From assembly GCA_964565125.1 (NCBI GenBank), contig CAZMCX010000054.1:1-5719 (forward strand): DNA of 5,719 bases. Reading direction: 5' to 3'. The translations under genes were made by a program, and so were the position numbers. The stretch comes from an uncultured archaeon (lineage in GTDB: Archaea > Iainarchaeota > Iainarchaeia > Iainarchaeales > 0-14-0-20-30-16). Under the pieces are notes generated by a model. It saw only the letters and a program-made list of their open reading frames with translations, was not told where the DNA came from and made no database searches. Position 1 is the stretch's first letter. Every line of letters begins with the position of its first letter. This document shows positions 1-5,719 of the stretch, in pieces.

Positions 1-5
1 ATTTT

Positions 6-737
6 ATGTTAAAAGTTAAGAATATCGTGACAAATAGCCTTTTGAGCTACTTTAAGCATTTCCACGTTGTAATTGGATATGCTATTGCTTTGCTTATTAC
101 CCTTTTTATAAACAATTTTGCATTTTCTTTGATGGGAAATGATGTAACTTTTGTATATGCTGCAAGCTACCCTATTTATGTTTATTTACTTGTTTTACTA
201 GCAATTGTGCTATCCAGCCTAATTTACTCTATGTTTACCTCAATCCTTGTGTTTGTAGTAAGAAGAGACCTATTCCAAGGAGTAAAGAAGATGGAAATGG
301 TAAAACACATAATAAAGTCAACTGCGAGCTTGTTTGTTGTGGCTTTAGCTGTTAACATAATTTACTTTATAATTTACTATATTTTTGTTGGAACTGTTGT
401 GGCATTCTTGATTCCGGTGTTGTACTTCATATTAGCAATATTTGTATTCTATTGCGCCCAGTCAATCATAATTGATGAAGAGGGGATTGGAGTTGCTCTA
501 GAACACAATTATAAGTTTATGAAAAATAATAAGTTAACTACTTTGGCGGTTTATCTTGTATTTGTTGTATTGATATTCATAGTTAGCTTAATTTCGATGT
601 GGATAGGTGGAACAACTGGATTGATAGTTGGATTAGTATTAAATACAATATTTATTGTACCATTGTTGGAAATAACAAAAACAGTAGTTTACTTAACAAA
701 ATTCAATATATTTAATTCTTATTTAAGACATAGATAA
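6..737 (+). CDS. Polytopic integral membrane protein, function unknown (about six predicted TM helices)
   Basis: 243-aa ORF with ATG at 6 and TAA at 735-737. It is very hydrophobic, with TM-like segments such as VVIGYAIALLITLFINNFAFSLM, LFVVALAVNIIYFIIYYIFVG and LAVYLVFVVLIFIVSLISMWIGG, plus one polar loop (DEEGIGVALEHNYKFMKNNK). No catalytic motif recognised. The ATG is 5 nt from the window edge with no upstream in-frame stop in the window, so the true start could lie upstream. Confidence 0.6.
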   Translation: MLKVKNIVTNSLLSYFKHFHVVIGYAIALLITLFINNFAFSLMGNDVTFVYAASYPIYVYLLVLLAIVLSSLIYSMFTSILVFVVRRDLFQGVKKMEMVKHIIKSTASLFVVALAVNIIYFIIYYIFVGTVVAFLIPVLYFILAIFVFYCAQSIIIDEEGIGVALEHNYKFMKNNKLTTLAVYLVFVVLIFIVSLISMWIGGTTGLIVGLVLNTIFIVPLLEITKTVVYLTKFNIFNSYLRHR

Positions 738-864: not shown

Positions 865-2967
865 TTATTCCTTTTTCTTTTTTGTTTTTCTAGGAGTCTT
901 TGCTTTTATGGGTTTAGTTGCAACTATTGTGGCTCTGGCTGCTGCTGCTGCTTCCCTTTTTCTGGCATATTCTTTTTGGGATGGGCAGTTATTGTTCAAA
1001 CAAAACTCGTGCTTTCTTTTGCCCTTCCTTAACTCTATTTTGGGGGCATTACATATGCTACATTTACCTGCGTAGGTATAGAAATCTTTCTGAGGCAAAG
1101 AATAAGTTATTTTACAATTGGGGTAATTGCTACAACCAAGGAATGATTTTCCCATTCTAGAAGTAAGCTTTCTTAAACTTCCACCACATAGACAAGGACC
1201 AAAAGAATCGTGCCTGCTGATGCCGCCAATAAGCTTCTGAGCTATCTTTCCTTTGTTTTCTAATAATTCGTTTAATATTTTTAATAAAAGGTCTCTAGAA
1301 TCATTTACAACTTTCTCTTTTGTGGTTTCTTTGTTTTCTATAGAAGTCATTTGATCTTCTAGCTTTGCGGTTGTTTCTGGAAGAACTATTGCTTTTGCAT
1401 ATTCTTGTAAAGCAGATATTACTGCTTTAGCAATTTCTGTAGAGTTTACTTGTTTTTCACCATCTATGTAGTTTCTAGAATAAAGCTTTTCGATTATTGT
1501 TGGCCTTGTGCTCTTAGTGCCCAGCCTTAGGTCTTCCATGAGCTTAATTAAAGTTCCTTGAGAATATTTTGCTGGCGGCTTGGTCTCTTTTGCAAGAATT
1601 TCTTTTTTTAATACAGGTAATTCTTCGCCAACTTCCATACTAGGTAAAAAGGATTCTGAAACTTTTCTATATGGATAAAACCAAAGCCAACCTTCTTTTA
1701 AAATTTCTAGACCTTCCGAAACAAATAAGTATTCGGGGGTTGAAAAATATACTTTTGTAGTATTTGCCTCTGCGTCTTCAGCAAGAGTTGCAAAAAATCT
1801 GTTAACTACTAACTTATAAACTTTCCATTCGGGCTTAGAAAGCGTATTTTCGCTTGCAAGAGTTACTGGGTGGATTGGTGGATGATCTTTAGTTTCTTCT
1901 CCCGCGGAAGGGACTATTTTGTCCTGTTTTCTTAGTTTCTCTACTTCTTTCTTAAAGCCGGGCTCTAAGTCAGAAAGTATTTTTGGTATATCTACCCCAA
2001 CATACTTCTTGTTGTCGGTTCGAGGATAGCTTATAAGCCCATTCATATACAGGTGTTCTGCAATACTTATTGCTTTTCCTGCTGAAAATCCAAGCTTTAT
2101 TGCTTCTCTTAAAAAATCTGTAGTGTTAAATGGCGTTGGTCTTGGAATTTTCTTCTTCTTTTTATCTAAACTGTGGACTTTTACTGTTTCCTTTACCGCA
2201 TTAAATATTTTTTCTGCTAATTCGTTATTGTCAATTTTTTCTTTTTCGTAAAGGGCAGTAAATTCTTCTCCTTTTTTCAAAGTTAATTCTACTTGCCAAT
2301 ATTTTTCGGGTACAAAATTTGCAATTTCCAGATCTTTTTCAACTATTTTTGCAAGAGTTGGGCTCTGAACTCTTCCTGCAGATAAAAAATCTGGGCCTAA
2401 TCTTTTTATTATTAAAGATAAAAATCTTGTAAGAACCGCACCCCAGATTAAATCTATTTCTCTACGCGCATCCGCGGCATCTGCTATGCCATAGTTAAGC
2501 TCTTGCAAATTTGAGAATGCTTTTGATAATTCGTCTTTTGTAATCGCTGAATAATATGCCCTCTTTATTTCTAGGTTTGGGTTTTCTTCTATAACATAAG
2601 TTACCGCCTCTTTTCCGATGGATTCTCCCTCTCGATCCGCATCGGTTGCAATTATAATTTTGTTTACCTCTTTTGCGTATTTTTTTAGAAGGGCGGCAAT
2701 TTCCTTTTCTTTCATTATATATCTTATTTCCGGCTTTTGAACTAAATCCTTTAGGTCTGTTCCAAGCCATCTTGAATATTTGAGTGGAAAAGCAACATCT
2801 GAAATGTGTCCTTTTAGCGGAATTAACACTACATCTCCAAGCTCTTTAGACGAAAATTCAAAATAAGGCATTTTGTTATAAAATTTTGAAGAGTAGTTCT
2901 TACTTGAAAGAATTTCGGAGATTGTTTTTCCTGCAATCGGTTTCTCTGCAACTACTATTGTTTTCAT
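865..2967 (-). CDS. topA: DNA topoisomerase I (type IA, TopA/Topo III-like) with two C-terminal zinc ribbons
   Basis: 700-aa ORF. N-terminal Toprim domain (VVAEKP with Glu8; DADREGE at residues 109-115). Type IA active-site motif GLISYPRTDN with Tyr314 (codon 2026-2028). RVQSPTL motif. Two C4 zinc ribbons (C592/C594/C612/C618 and C636/C639/C656/C661; nt 985-1194). Lys-rich C-terminal tail. ATG at 2967 is preceded by GGTG with a 5-nt spacer. Stop TAA at 865-867. Confidence 0.95.
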   Translation of the reverse strand: MKTIVVAEKPIAGKTISEILSSKNYSSKFYNKMPYFEFSSKELGDVVLIPLKGHISDVAFPLKYSRWLGTDLKDLVQKPEIRYIMKEKEIAALLKKYAKEVNKIIIATDADREGESIGKEAVTYVIEENPNLEIKRAYYSAITKDELSKAFSNLQELNYGIADAADARREIDLIWGAVLTRFLSLIIKRLGPDFLSAGRVQSPTLAKIVEKDLEIANFVPEKYWQVELTLKKGEEFTALYEKEKIDNNELAEKIFNAVKETVKVHSLDKKKKKIPRPTPFNTTDFLREAIKLGFSAGKAISIAEHLYMNGLISYPRTDNKKYVGVDIPKILSDLEPGFKKEVEKLRKQDKIVPSAGEETKDHPPIHPVTLASENTLSKPEWKVYKLVVNRFFATLAEDAEANTTKVYFSTPEYLFVSEGLEILKEGWLWFYPYRKVSESFLPSMEVGEELPVLKKEILAKETKPPAKYSQGTLIKLMEDLRLGTKSTRPTIIEKLYSRNYIDGEKQVNSTEIAKAVISALQEYAKAIVLPETTAKLEDQMTSIENKETTKEKVVNDSRDLLLKILNELLENKGKIAQKLIGGISRHDSFGPCLCGGSLRKLTSRMGKSFLGCSNYPNCKITYSLPQKDFYTYAGKCSICNAPKIELRKGKRKHEFCLNNNCPSQKEYARKREAAAAARATIVATKPIKAKTPRKTKKKKE
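938..952. repeat. (GCT)5 trinucleotide repeat inside topA, encoding a short poly-Ala run (A673-A677)
   Basis: Read directly: gct x5 at 938-952, translated on the minus strand as GCA GCA GCA GCA within ...KREAAAAARA... Confidence 0.8.
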
Positions 2968-2972
2968 AAAAA

Positions 2973-2976
2973 CACC
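2973..2976 (-). promoter_or_regulatory. Shine-Dalgarno-like GGTG for topA
   Basis: Minus strand reads AAAAGGTGTTTTTATG. GGTG is complementary to the conserved 16S rRNA 3' end (..GAUCACCUCC..). The spacer to the ATG is 5 nt. Confidence 0.5.
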
Positions 2977-2980
2977 TTTT

Positions 2981-3035
2981 ATGAACCTGTTTGACGTTTT
3001 GCGAATTTTCTGAGCACAAACTCAAACTTGTTCAT
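2981..3035. repeat. Extended imperfect hairpin / palindromic intergenic element, copy A (between lrp and topA)
   Basis: Plus strand: ATGAAC-CT-GTTTGA-C-GTTTTGC-[GAATTTTCTGA]-GCACAAAC-TCAAAC-TT-GTTCAT. It has a 6-bp outer stem, a 2x2 internal loop, a 6-bp conserved middle stem, a 7-bp inner stem with one bulged C on each side, and an 11-nt loop. Homologous to copy B. Confidence 0.6.
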
Positions 3036-3064
3036 CATACCACACTAATAAGGCAAAACAAGTT

Positions 3065-3541
3065 TTAATGCCTATAATAAACTTGTAGACTGGATAATGG
3101 CAAAGAATCTTTTTCATATTCCTTTCCAGTAACTATTAATATTTTGAAATCTATTACACCTTCTAATTTTGTTAACAAATTGTCCAATAATTCTACTTGA
3201 GACATATCTGGAACTAAGTAAAAAAGGGTTATGTTATAGTCTCCCGCGGTTCTGTAAATACTTTTTACAAAATCTTCTGATTTAAGAGACGCCATTATTT
3301 TTTTATAAAAGAAATTATTTACTTTAAGCAAAACTAAAAACAAGCCCTGGAACCCAACAACATCATAGCCAATATCTATTGATATCTGTTTTATTATTTT
3401 TTTTGAAATAAGTCGCTCGAACCGTTTTTTTACTGCAACATCGCTTATGCCTATTTCTTTAGCCATATTACTAAAAGAAGCCCGCCCATCCTTTATTAAC
3501 ATTTGAAGTATTTTGAAATCATATTGGTCTAATACTGCCAT
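3065..3541 (-). CDS. Lrp/AsnC-family transcriptional regulator (N-terminal HTH plus C-terminal RAM/ligand-binding domain)
   Basis: N-terminus MAVLDQYDFKILQMLIKDGRASFSNMAKEIGISDVAVKKRFERLISKKII is a typical AsnC-type HTH, and about 158 aa is the usual family size. The ORF track begins at a GTG (3550), but the GGTG SD (3553..3550) overlaps that codon. The ATG at 3541 has an 8-nt spacer, so it is preferred. Stop TAA at 3065-3067. Confidence 0.9.
   Translation of the reverse strand: MAVLDQYDFKILQMLIKDGRASFSNMAKEIGISDVAVKKRFERLISKKIIKQISIDIGYDVVGFQGLFLVLLKVNNFFYKKIMASLKSEDFVKSIYRTAGDYNITLFYLVPDMSQVELLDNLLTKLEGVIDFKILIVTGKEYEKDSLPLSSLQVYYRH
3073..3081 (-). promoter_or_regulatory. TATA-like box (TTTATTATA on minus strand), candidate topA promoter inside the 3' end of lrp
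   Basis: Sequence resemblance only. If used, the start site would fall near 3051, placing hairpin copy A at the 5' end of the topA leader. Co-transcription with lrp is equally possible. Confidence 0.25.
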
Positions 3542-3549
3542 AAAAATCA

Positions 3550-3553
3550 CACC
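3550..3553 (-). promoter_or_regulatory. Shine-Dalgarno-like GGTG for lrp
   Basis: Minus strand reads AAAATTAAGGTGTGATTTTTATG, giving GGTG, an 8-nt spacer and the ATG at 3541. Confidence 0.5.
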
Positions 3554-3561
3554 TTAATTTT

Positions 3562-3619
3562 GATGGCCTGTTTGAAATTTCTGCAATTTGCCAGTGAGCA
3601 GGAATTCAAACTTGCCATC
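3562..3619. repeat. Extended imperfect hairpin / palindromic intergenic element, copy B (between nuclease gene and lrp)
   Basis: Plus strand: GATGGC-CT-GTTTGA-AATTTCTGC-[AATTTGCCAGTGA]-GCAGGAAT-TCAAAC-TT-GCCATC. The architecture matches copy A: a 6-bp outer stem, the same CT/TT internal loop, the same GTTTGA/TCAAAC middle stem, an 8-bp inner stem (one G-T wobble, one bulged A) and a 13-nt loop. Confidence 0.6.
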
Positions 3620-3645
3620 TTATTCACCTTACTATGTATTTTAGA

Positions 3646-5630: not shown

Positions 5631-5651
5631 AAATAAATAAAAGTAGAAAAG

Positions 5652-5667
5652 TGATATATGCCTTTCG
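5652..5667 (-). promoter_or_regulatory. Candidate BRE/TATA promoter for a leaderless elp3 transcript
   Basis: Minus strand reads CGAAAGG-C-ATATATCA-N21-ATG. The TATA-like box (5659..5652) is centred about 26 nt upstream of the elp3 ATG. There is no GGTG-type SD in between, which is the geometry expected for an archaeal leaderless mRNA. Confidence 0.3.
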
Positions 5668-5683
5668 GGGTCAAATTACCCCG
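5666..5683. other. GC-rich hairpin CGGGGT-[CAAATT]-ACCCCG upstream of the elp3 promoter
   Basis: Read directly: a perfect 6-bp stem with a 6-nt loop, which stands out in AT-rich surroundings. Confidence 0.3.
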
Positions 5684-5692
5684 TTCAAATTG

Positions 5693-5709
5693 TATGGCCT
5701 AAAGCCATA
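5693..5709. other. Hairpin TATGGC-[CTAAA]-GCCATA near the window edge
   Basis: Read directly: a perfect 6-bp stem with a 5-nt loop. Its 5' arm plus two loop bases (ATGGCCT) is identical to positions 3563-3569 of hairpin copy B. Confidence 0.3.
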
Positions 5710-5719
5710 AGAACGCTAT

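What the first reader, a model, noticed from the sequence alone, without database searches (positions are those of the whole stretch)
2981..3619. Two paralogous extended hairpin elements with compensatory stem changes, positioned just upstream of the lrp and topA ribosome-binding sites
Copy A (2981-3035) reads ATGAAC-CT-GTTTGA-C-GTTTTGC-[loop 11]-GCACAAAC-TCAAAC-TT-GTTCAT. Copy B (3562-3619) reads GATGGC-CT-GTTTGA-AATTTCTGC-[loop 13]-GCAGGAAT-TCAAAC-TT-GCCATC. Both copies share CCTGTTTGA on the left and TGAGCA-N5-TCAAACTTG on the right with identical spacing. Both also have the same 2x2 internal loop, which is CT/TT on the plus strand and AA/AG on the gene-sense minus-strand RNA (tandem purine mismatches). 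Where the copies differ, complementarity is preserved. The outer stem is ATGAAC/GTTCAT in A and GATGGC/GCCATC in B. The inner stem base is G2996:C3021 in A and A3577:T3605 in B, and the remaining inner stems differ yet are each self-complementary. Sequence drift with a retained fold argues for selection on a hairpin (RNA or single-stranded DNA) rather than only a duplex protein site. On the minus strand both copies end 4-8 nt before an A-rich spacer, a GGTG SD and the ATG of lrp or topA, and both begin about 30-35 nt after the preceding stop codon. From memory I cannot match them to tRNA, C/D or H/ACA sRNAs, or a known riboswitch. I see four hypotheses. (1) A shared cis-regulatory 5'-leader RNA bound by a protein. 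(2) A REP-like intergenic stabiliser or terminator repeat. (3) An operator for the adjacent Lrp regulator, using GTTTGA/TCAAAC half-sites 33-36 bp apart. (4) A supercoiling-sensitive cruciform in front of the topoisomerase gene, which is less likely given the 11-13 nt loops.
Basis: partly seen in the sequence, partly recalled or inferred. Interest (0 to 1): 0.7.

Follow-up and report, generated by a model that had tools for sequence, protein, structure and literature searches.

The report
Mobile hairpin repeats at archaeal start codons
The two hairpins are real, but they are copies of a small mobile palindromic DNA element of DPANN (Iainarchaeota-like) archaea that lands on start codons and leaves a second ribosome-binding site and start codon behind, not a conserved regulatory RNA of lrp and topA.

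Summary
Both hairpins exist as described and are far beyond chance. They are not conserved leaders: three syntenic relatives (L135, L141, L138) have short, hairpin-free spacers in front of lrp and topA. Related strain contigs differ by a precise 77-nt presence/absence of a third copy just outside window position 1. About 25 further copies, in several sub-families with different cores, sit in front of unrelated genes (ribosomal proteins, RNA polymerase subunits, PCNA, MCM, SecE and others). All share one architecture on the gene-sense strand. It runs: old SD–ATG–NN, then C-AA-[palindromic core]-AG-G, then a segment complementary to spacer+ATG+NN, then an A-rich linker, then a second SD–ATG–NN that starts the gene. 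One inner-stem pair does covary (G-C/A-U). The topA start was hit independently three times by different sub-families. Best reading: a selfish, non-autonomous hairpin element specialised for translation-initiation regions. I found no description of this architecture. How the target-complementary arm arises, and which enzyme if any moves the element, are unresolved.

The parts
2986..3030 (-). Copy A, conserved core: C-AA-GTTTGA..TGCTCA..TCAAAC-AG-G (sub-family 1)
   Evidence: cmsearch 74.7 bits. The core is nearly identical to polymorphic copy C in L003.
3031..3048 (-). Copy A, upstream pseudo-initiation region (TTAGTGTGGTATGATGAA). It is a decayed duplicate of the topA SD-spacer-ATG-AA, and its ATGAA forms the 5' outer arm.
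   Evidence: Compared with the empty topA sites ATGTGATTTTATGAAAAC (L141) and GGGTTGTTTTATGAAAAC (L138).
2977..2985 (-). Copy A, 3' arm TTCAT+AAAA, complementary to TTTTATGAA of the topA initiation region
   Evidence: 9/9 match to the functional region.
2960..2976 (-). Functional topA initiation region: SD GGTG (2973-2976), ATG (2965-2967)
3567..3614 (-). Copy B, conserved core (diverged sub-family 1 member)
   Evidence: cmsearch 74.1 bits.
3615..3631 (-). Copy B, ancestral lrp initiation region, now upstream of the core (TAAGGTGAATAAGATGG; SD1 3625-3628, ATG1 3616-3618). GATGG forms the 5' outer arm.
   Evidence: It matches the empty orthologous sites AAGGTGAGAAAATGGC (L135), AAGGTGAGCAAAATGGC (L141) and AAAGGTGAAAAAATGGC (L142).
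3556..3566 (-). Copy B, 3' arm CCATCAAAATT. It is complementary to the start region and mirrors the ATTTT spacer of the downstream region, not the ancestral spacer.
3536..3555 (-). Present lrp initiation region: SD GGTGTG (3548-3553), ATG (3539-3541). The SD and spacer are not ancestral, and the same GGTGTGATTTT module occurs in copies C and L012, so they appear to have arrived with the element.
1..10 (+). ATTTTATGTT: start-codon repeat of the membrane-protein gene (6-737). A third, polymorphic copy (C) lies immediately upstream of it in some strains. The window ends here.
   Evidence: L003 filled versus L002 empty, a 77-nt difference. The window starts, and contigs L001 and L004 end, at this gene's start codon.

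Best explanation
The two hairpins are copies of a non-autonomous palindromic mobile element, MITE/REP-like and adding about 68-77 nt per insertion, found in Iainarchaeota-like DPANN archaea. It inserts into translation-initiation regions immediately after ATG plus 1-3 nt.

Shown:
- Every copy has the same order on the gene-sense strand: [old SD-spacer-ATG-NN] - C-AA-[conserved palindromic core]-AG-G - [segment complementary to spacer+ATG+NN] - [A-rich linker] - [second SD-spacer-ATG-NN + gene].
- The element is absent from orthologous sites in close relatives and polymorphic within a population.
- It recurs at the same site with different cores, and copies nest inside each other.
- In some copies, including lrp copy B, the SD now used by the gene is not the ancestral one.

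Inferred:
- Because an intact SD/ATG is regenerated downstream, insertion does not kill the gene. That lets the element persist in a genome whose intergenic spacers are otherwise 0-40 nt.
- In the mRNA, the old start codon tends to be locked in the hairpin's outer stem by the complementary arm. The new SD/ATG then directs translation. Support for this step is weak.
- Spread (my best guess, about 0.4): homology- or microhomology-assisted copying, meaning template switching or gene conversion, between the mutually similar initiation regions of different genes. Crossovers would fall in the two conserved blocks, the SD core GTGAT or ATG-NN, with 1-4 nt of CAA microhomology at the 5' junction.
- The conserved AA/AG loop next to the junction is probably the feature that a trans-acting protein recognises.
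For: - Hairpins real.
- Family: exact-pattern scans, a covariance model and repeat scans give 16 distinct sub-family-1 copies plus about 10 copies with other cores, all in AT-rich archaeal contigs.
- Empty orthologous sites: L135 (Lrp 91% identical), L141 (TopA 87%) and L138 (Lrp 54%) have spacers of 33-36 nt before lrp and at most about 30 nt before topA. The window has 113 and 97 nt. The S17e site is filled in L001 and empty in L135, L141 and L142.
- Polymorphism: L003 versus L002 differ by exactly 77 nt, flanked by ATTTTATGTT.
- Independent hits at the topA start: sub-family 1 in the window, sub-family 2 in L142 with a perfect 16-nt repeat GGTGTGACTTTATGAA, and three nested elements in L136.
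- Flanking direct repeats of 10-16 nt, perfect and containing ATG (L011, L022b, L110, L105b, L011b, L136, S17e, L142).
- Unusual SD variants shared by both repeats of one copy: L059 GAGTGA, L118 GGGGG.
- The 3' arm matches its own initiation region better than those of other copies (0 of 20,000 permutations reach the observed sum, 20 copies).
- Repeat lengths fall into two groups, 5-11 nt and 13-16 nt. The long group starts at the GTGAT SD core (GGTGAT/TGTGAT in three copies) in six of its eight members.
- Downstream genes are unrelated: L37ae, SecE, L10, RpoA', RpoL, a 601-aa protein I read by eye as RNA polymerase subunit B (not scanned), MCM, PCNA, S4, S6e, S17e, a methyltransferase and membrane proteins.
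- No Rfam family reaches its gathering score.
Against: - No transposase, HUH enzyme or reverse transcriptase was identified, and no whole genome was available for a census.
- The origin of the target-complementary arm is unresolved. It is imperfect even where the flanking repeats are perfect (L011, L110, L022b, L142). In copies B and L142:6533 it mirrors a foreign spacer. Both facts fit inheritance from a donor. Against that, identical cores carry unrelated arms (L022b vs L059, 45/45 nt in the core), which fits re-templating at each insertion or concerted evolution of the cores.
- Predicted RNA folds separate the two start codons only weakly: mean pairing probability 0.75 for ATG1 and 0.56 for ATG2.
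- Downstream genes are enriched for information-processing functions, and the AA/AG loop is conserved across sub-families. Either could reflect a host function that I cannot exclude.
- Presence/absence could formally reflect precise deletions between the direct repeats. However, three different element types at the topA start argue for repeated gains.
Confidence: 0.8

Rival explanations
1. A host cis-regulatory RNA. The leader or intercistronic hairpin would be bound by a protein through the AA/AG purine loop and the conserved TGCTCA loop. It would control translation, for example through competition between the decoy start and the real start for the complementary arm, for a set of growth-related genes.
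For: The element always has the orientation of the downstream gene and sits 10-25 nt before its SD. The AA/AG loop is conserved across sub-families with different cores. The downstream genes are enriched for ribosomal, RNA polymerase and replication proteins. The 3' arm can pair with either start region. One G.U-preserving SNP occurs in copy B (GCCATC to GTCATC in L003, L006 and L007).
Against: The element is absent from all three orthologous sites in the nearest relatives and polymorphic within a population. Different cores occupy the same topA site in different lineages, and copies are nested. Some copies lie in intergenic DNA that is not a start site (L032:141, L012:647). Mismatches in the outer stem include A.C, which is a wobble only on the antisense strand (copies C, L124, L142). 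The upstream ORF falls in two different frames.
Confidence: 0.1
2. A classical MITE or an ssDNA hairpin element mobilised by an enzyme. The enzyme could be a DDE transposase or a casposase-like integrase making a ~14-bp staggered cut. Alternatively it could be an HUH/IS200-IS605/RAYT-type enzyme that reads the hairpin and uses the 3' arm as a guide that base-pairs with the target.
For: Six young copies have 13-14-nt perfect target repeats. The termini are imperfect inverted repeats, CAAGTTTGA / TCAAACAGG. A mismatch loop is conserved at the junction. The 3' arm is complementary to the sequence immediately 5' of the insertion point, as with IS200/IS605 guides (general knowledge). The arm is imperfect even in young copies, and copy C carries a single A.C mismatch, which fits an inherited guide.
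Against: Repeat length is not fixed (5-21 nt, in two groups). The one insertion whose pre-insertion sequence is known (copy C) has only a 10-nt repeat and carries a foreign SD. IS200/IS605 and REP elements make no target duplication. No candidate enzyme was seen in about 170 kb of related contigs.
Confidence: 0.35
3. An operator for the adjacent Lrp/AsnC regulator, or a supercoiling-sensitive cruciform that tunes topA.
For: Only the location next to lrp and topA in this window, and the GTTTGA/TCAAAC half-sites.
Against: The same core precedes many unrelated genes on contigs where no lrp gene is seen near it. lrp and topA orthologues in L135, L141 and L138 lack it, and L142 has a different core at topA.
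Confidence: 0.02
4. A domesticated REP-like mRNA stabiliser or processing signal. The selfish origin would be the same, but copies would be retained because the 5' or intercistronic hairpin protects downstream cistrons from 5'-3' decay or marks processing sites.
For: The intercistronic position inside apparent operons (ELP3-Holl-lrp-topA). The hairpins are stable (-17 to -26 kcal/mol). Old copies persist with a decayed upstream repeat, such as copy A.
Against: There is no conservation at orthologous sites. There are no expression data. The core, not merely the stem stability, is conserved in sequence, including the loop.
Confidence: 0.1

Closest known systems
Prokaryotic MITEs (e.g. Neisseria Correia/NEMIS, pneumococcal RUP/BOX, Sulfolobus SM elements)
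   Same: Short, non-coding, multi-copy and hairpin-forming. Flanked by direct repeats of the target. Presence/absence polymorphism. Co-transcribed with neighbouring genes and able to supply expression signals.
   Different: The repeat is long and variable (5-21 nt) and consists of the SD-ATG region itself. There is an additional inverted copy or complement of the target inside the insertion. No parent IS with the same ends is known. Insertion is at a fixed position relative to the start codon.
REP/BIME/REPIN elements with RAYT transposases, and IS200/IS605-derived palindrome-associated elements
   Same: A small extragenic palindrome with conserved mismatches. It is probably recognised as a single-stranded hairpin. 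The logic of target recognition by base pairing next to the hairpin foot is similar.
   Different: REPs carry a GTAG/CGTC tag, usually lie 3' of genes and make no target duplication. No RAYT or TnpA was found here. These copies are archaeal (DPANN) and sit at gene starts.
Mycobacterial interspersed repetitive units (MIRUs)
   Same: Intercistronic position inside operons, same orientation as the genes, and short ORFs whose ends overlap the neighbouring genes' stop and start signals.
   Different: MIRUs are tandem direct repeats, not hairpins with target-derived stems, and they are bacterial.
Selfish palindromes of organelle genomes (yeast mitochondrial GC clusters, Volvox palindromic repeats, Magnusiomyces 'byp' elements)
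   Same: Short hairpins that invade compact AT-rich genomes, nest into each other and are flanked by short matching sequences. Byp elements are flanked by identical take-off and landing codons.
   Different: Those lie in organelles, and some sit inside coding sequence where translational bypass is needed. Here a complete initiation region is regenerated, so no bypass is needed.
Quasi-palindrome template-switch mutagenesis and microhomology-mediated template switching
   Same: These would generate or extend a hairpin stem by copying the opposite arm. They would also give variable-length junction repeats with 1-4 nt of microhomology.
   Different: They are known as mutational mechanisms, not as the dispersal route of a conserved element family. 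This is inferred here and not demonstrated.

Membership tests
Any Rfam RNA family (riboswitch, leader, sRNA, C/D or H/ACA) | Match to a curated covariance model at its gathering score | tested here: not met
   The best overlap is SNORA33 at 20.5 bits against a gathering score of 74, E = 9.7. Nothing else falls on the hairpins. No tRNA was found.
Conserved cis-regulatory leader of lrp/topA | Present at orthologous leaders in related genomes | tested here: not met
   L135, L141 and L138 are empty at both sites. L142 is empty at lrp and carries a different core at topA.
MITE | Multiple dispersed copies, no coding capacity, size under about 300 bp | tested here: met
   About 25 distinct copies, each insertion adding 68-77 nt. 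The upstream ORF falls in two frames, so no peptide is conserved.
MITE | Terminal inverted repeats | tested here: met
   CAAGTTTGA / TCAAACAGG, imperfect, with a constant AA/AG mismatch. The same holds in the other sub-families.
MITE | Target-site duplication of a length fixed by the transposase | tested here: inconclusive
   Direct repeats are always present, but they measure 5-11 nt or 13-16 (up to 21) nt.
MITE | Insertion polymorphism with precise empty sites | tested here: met
   L002 vs L003. L135, L141 and L138 vs the window and L001.
MITE | A related autonomous IS with the same ends | not tested
No transposase was seen in the gene calls of the related contigs.
REP / REPIN | GTAG or CGTC tag at the hairpin foot and a RAYT gene in the genome | tested here: not met
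   No such tag is present; the foot reads C-AA / AG-G. The presence of a RAYT gene could not be tested.
IS200/IS605-type palindrome-associated element | Insertion 3' of a short fixed target without target duplication | tested here: not met
   Insertion is 3' of ATG-NN, but with a duplicated flank.
Lrp/AsnC operator | Sites confined to the regulon and promoters of the regulator | tested here: not met
   The sites lie in front of unrelated genes on other contigs and are absent from lrp orthologues.
Intrinsic terminator | Hairpin followed by a T run on the transcribed strand | tested here: not met
   The hairpin is followed by an A-rich tract and an SD on the gene-sense strand.

The most novel reading that the evidence does not exclude
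A previously undescribed class of archaeal mobile hairpin that hops specifically between translation-initiation regions. It uses the short homology that all SD-spacer-ATG regions share, or a target-pairing 3' arm that is rebuilt or selected at each insertion. It can deliver a portable SD and start codon, so essential genes survive the hit. If so, it works without a classical fixed-stagger transposase. It would also explain how selfish DNA persists in ultra-compact DPANN genomes.
Probability: 0.4. Interest if true: 0.8.

Novelty: new variant of a known kind. Interest (0 to 1): 0.65.

Why it matters
1. It shows how selfish DNA can colonise an extremely compact genome: insert at the start codon and regenerate the ribosome-binding site and ATG. 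Even genes for RNA polymerase, ribosomal proteins, PCNA and MCM carry copies.

2. It is a caution for RNA discovery. Paralogous hairpins with apparently compensatory stems can be produced mechanically, by target duplication plus a target-matched arm, without selection on an RNA fold.

3. It has practical consequences. These elements can mislead start-codon calls, since each copy has two SD/ATG pairs. They create spurious ORFs, such as the 71-aa call in L136, and they break metagenome assemblies, as the window's own end shows.

4. The SD that lrp now uses appears to be element-borne, so the elements rewire translation signals.

5. The target-complementary arm hints at a pairing- or templating-based insertion mechanism that would be new for archaeal non-autonomous elements.

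Tried and rejected
- Rfam scan of the window at E <= 10: nothing relevant.
- C/D-box or H/ACA readings were considered because of UGAUGA in copy A and the weak SNORA33 hit. I rejected them because the other copies lack the boxes.
- A conserved small peptide from the upstream ATG: rejected, because the frame differs between copies (N = 1 or 2 nt before CAAG).
- A K-turn or BHB motif at the AA/AG loop: the symmetric 2x2 geometry does not fit either. This rests on knowledge, not on a test.
- A promoter role for the A/T-rich linker (TTAAATATA-like): its distance to the ATG is too short for an archaeal TATA box. This is inference.
- A fixed-length TSD model: contradicted by the 5-21-nt repeats.
- A-specific mis-templating, as in DGR retroelements, was considered because mismatches in the 3' arm are mostly T>C (12) with A>G only once. 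I set it aside because the A-run opposite the T-run of the spacer makes the comparison low-complexity, and C>T is also common (8).
- RNA folding of 19 leaders to test sequestration of the old start codon: only a weak difference.
- Five literature searches and one 2024 MITE review found no description of such elements.
- The viral contig scan gave only chance hits.
- Most of the 118 metagenome pattern hits were chance matches in GC-richer coding DNA.
Full report
**Observation.** The window is AT-rich archaeal DNA. Four genes lie on the minus strand: an ELP3-type radical-SAM/GNAT protein (5630-4071), a membrane-anchored Holliday-resolvase-like nuclease (4070-3654), an Lrp/AsnC regulator (3541-3065) and topoisomerase I (2967-865). 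A membrane-protein gene lies on the plus strand at 6-737. Each folds on either strand, with z-scores of -3.9 to -5.0 and at most 1 of 200 shuffles as stable. The shared GTTTGA...TCAAAC frame occurs twice against 0.01 expected. No Rfam family matches and there is no tRNA.

Read on the gene-sense strand, the 5' outer arm is a copy of the downstream gene's own start. Copy A reads ..GTGTGGTATG**ATGAA**-C-AA-GTTTGA...TCAAAC-AG-G-**TTCAT**-AAAA-GGTGTTTTT**ATGAA**AACA (topA). Copy B reads AAGGTGAATAAG**ATGGC**-AA-GTTTGA...TCAAAC-AG-G-**CCATC**-AAAATTAAGGTGTGATTTTT**ATGGC**AGTA (lrp). The variable outer stem is therefore the start-codon region, its complement, and then the start-codon region again.

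**Family.**
- The same contig from other samples (L001-L010) carries both copies.
- L003 carries a third copy (C) directly upstream of the membrane-protein gene. L002, a related strain, lacks it precisely. The difference is 77 nt flanked by ATTTTATGTT.
- The window starts, and contigs L001 and L004 end, at that gene's start codon. This looks like an assembly break at the repeat.
- Exact-pattern scans of GTDB genomes and JGI/ENA metagenomes recovered further copies. They include L011, L012 (a 'Candidatus ainarchaeum' MAG), L022 (two copies), L023/L051, L032, L059, L087, L095, L105, L110, L118 and L124. Most other pattern hits were chance matches.
- TopA homologues carry source names of Diapherotrites/Iainarchaeota.
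- Sixteen distinct sub-family-1 copies align with an almost invariant core, including the loop motif TGCTCA.
- On this alignment 91% of cells pair, against 83% in shuffles. One core pair covaries, G-C in 4 copies and A-U in 11 with one exception.
- A covariance model re-found all copies. It also picked up weaker hits that turned out to be other sub-families: different cores with the same architecture and the same C-AA...AG-G foot.
- One of these lies in the same contig as the window, in front of the ribosomal protein S17e gene. Its flanking repeat GATATTATGGGCAAA is 15/15 nt.

**Insertions, not conserved leaders.**
- Three syntenic relatives have short, hairpin-free spacers. L135 (Lrp 91% identical) has 36 nt before lrp. 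Its annotated topA start overlaps the lrp stop, and the MKTI start codon lies 14 nt further on. It has 11 nt before S17e.
- L141 (TopA 87%) has 33 and 29 nt. L138 is also empty at topA.
- The empty sites show the ancestral initiation regions. For lrp this is AAGGTGAG(C)AAAATGGC, which is what now lies upstream of core B. The SD and spacer that lrp uses today (GGTGTGATTTTT) are different. The same module occurs in copies C and L012.
- The topA start was hit independently three times: sub-family 1 in the window, sub-family 2 in L142 with a perfect 16-nt repeat, and three nested elements in L136 that were annotated as a 71-aa ORF.
- L142 has a further copy at another gene. There too the upstream region is the ancestral one and the downstream SD is foreign.
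- Downstream genes are functionally unrelated to Lrp: ribosomal proteins L37ae, L10, S4, S6e and S17e, RpoA', RpoL, SecE, MCM, PCNA and a methyltransferase by Pfam. There are also a 601-aa protein that looks like RNA polymerase subunit B (not scanned) and membrane proteins.
- Two or three copies lie in intergenic DNA away from a start codon.

**The target-matched arm.**
- Across 20 copies, the 12-14 nt after the core match the reverse complement of the copy's own initiation region better than those of other copies. None of 20,000 permutations reached the observed sum.
- The arm matches the downstream, functional region better than the upstream arm it pairs with in the hairpin (261 vs 199). The outer stem is therefore not being maintained by compensatory evolution.
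- How the arm arises is unresolved. Inheritance from a donor is favoured by three facts. The arm is imperfect even when the flanking repeats are perfect (L011, L110, L022b, L142). In copies B and L142:6533 it mirrors the foreign spacer. In the very young copy C it has a single A.C mismatch and sits next to a foreign SD.
- Re-templating at each insertion, or concerted evolution of the cores, is favoured by two facts. Identical cores carry unrelated arms (L022b vs L059). Unusual spacers are mirrored copy-specifically (S17e, L059, L118).
- The lengths of the flanking repeats fall into two groups. Short repeats of 5-11 nt end in the ATG block and go with a foreign SD. Long repeats of 13-16 nt mostly start at the SD core GTGAT.
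- The 5' junction often shows 1-4 nt of microhomology: the host reads ATG-NN-CA(A) and the element begins CAAG.
- I read this as copying between the mutually similar initiation regions of different genes, with crossovers in their two conserved blocks, rather than a fixed staggered cut. This is inference, at about 0.4. An enzyme-mediated route (a ~14-bp stagger, or an HUH-type hairpin enzyme using the arm as a guide) remains a serious rival.

**Consequences for expression (inferred).** The element is co-oriented with the gene and probably transcribed in its leader. The ancestral lrp promoter-like region is contiguous with the upstream repeat. Predicted folds pair the old ATG more often than the new one, but the difference is modest: mean pairing probability 0.75 vs 0.56. 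The short ORF from the old ATG falls in two frames across copies, so it has no conserved product.

**Comparison and novelty.**
- The nearest known kinds are prokaryotic MITEs and REP/REPIN or IS200/IS605-derived palindromes. MIRUs and organelle palindromes are positional and ecological analogues.
- The element meets the MITE criteria of small size, copy number, inverted termini, flanking repeats and insertion polymorphism. The repeat length is not fixed, and no parent IS is known.
- It fails the defining features of REP (tag), IS200/IS605 (no duplication), Rfam families, a conserved leader, an Lrp operator and an intrinsic terminator.
- Five full-text searches and a 2024 review of prokaryotic MITEs gave no description of a start-codon-specific hairpin element that duplicates the RBS.
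- I therefore class it as a new variant of a known kind, with moderate-to-high interest.

**Limits.**
- There was no complete genome, so there is no copy census.
- No transcript data were available.
- The mobilising activity is unknown.
- The single insertion with a known pre-insertion sequence (copy C) cannot settle the mechanism.

Noticed in passing
window ~5650-5719 (minus-strand sense, upstream of ELP3); L002:37-134, L003:90-223, L004, L005: A 64-nt tandem repeat that contains the hairpins GGGGTAATTTGACCCC and ATGGCTTTAGGCCAT. Copy number differs between strain contigs: 1 in the window, L001 and L010; 2 in L002, L003 and L007; 3 in L004 and L005.
   Followed up: partly
window 1-10: The window starts, and contigs L001 and L004 end, at the start codon of the membrane-protein gene. 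That is the repeat (ATTTTATGTT) flanking the polymorphic third hairpin copy, so this is probably an assembly break caused by the repeat or the polymorphism.
   Followed up: partly
L001:1525-2043 (same contig as the window, about 8 kb upstream of the ELP3 gene in gene orientation); also L141 and L142: A 520-nt intergenic region with a cluster of eight palindromic (G)GTAATTAC(C) motifs next to what looks like a tRNA gene (not scanned). The cluster is conserved in the relatives. It could be origin-recognition-box-like or a set of regulator sites.
   Followed up: no
L136:557-772: A called 71-aa ORF between lrp and topA consists entirely of three nested hairpin elements. It is a likely spurious gene call.
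   Followed up: yes
L138:8063-10098: The topoisomerase I gene of this relative is called as two ORFs (264 + 400 aa). It may be split, frameshifted or interrupted.
   Followed up: no
L032 (MCM gene starting after the element at ~2955): The MCM sequence departs from the P-loop domain right after GKTASGAGL (..CVGRNTFVFDNYNLHKIGD..), which suggests an intein.
   Followed up: no
window 3542-3550: The mechanical ORF list starts lrp at a GTG (3550) that lies inside the element-borne SD (GGTGTG). The gene calls of the public contigs and the orthologues support the ATG at 3541.
   Followed up: yes
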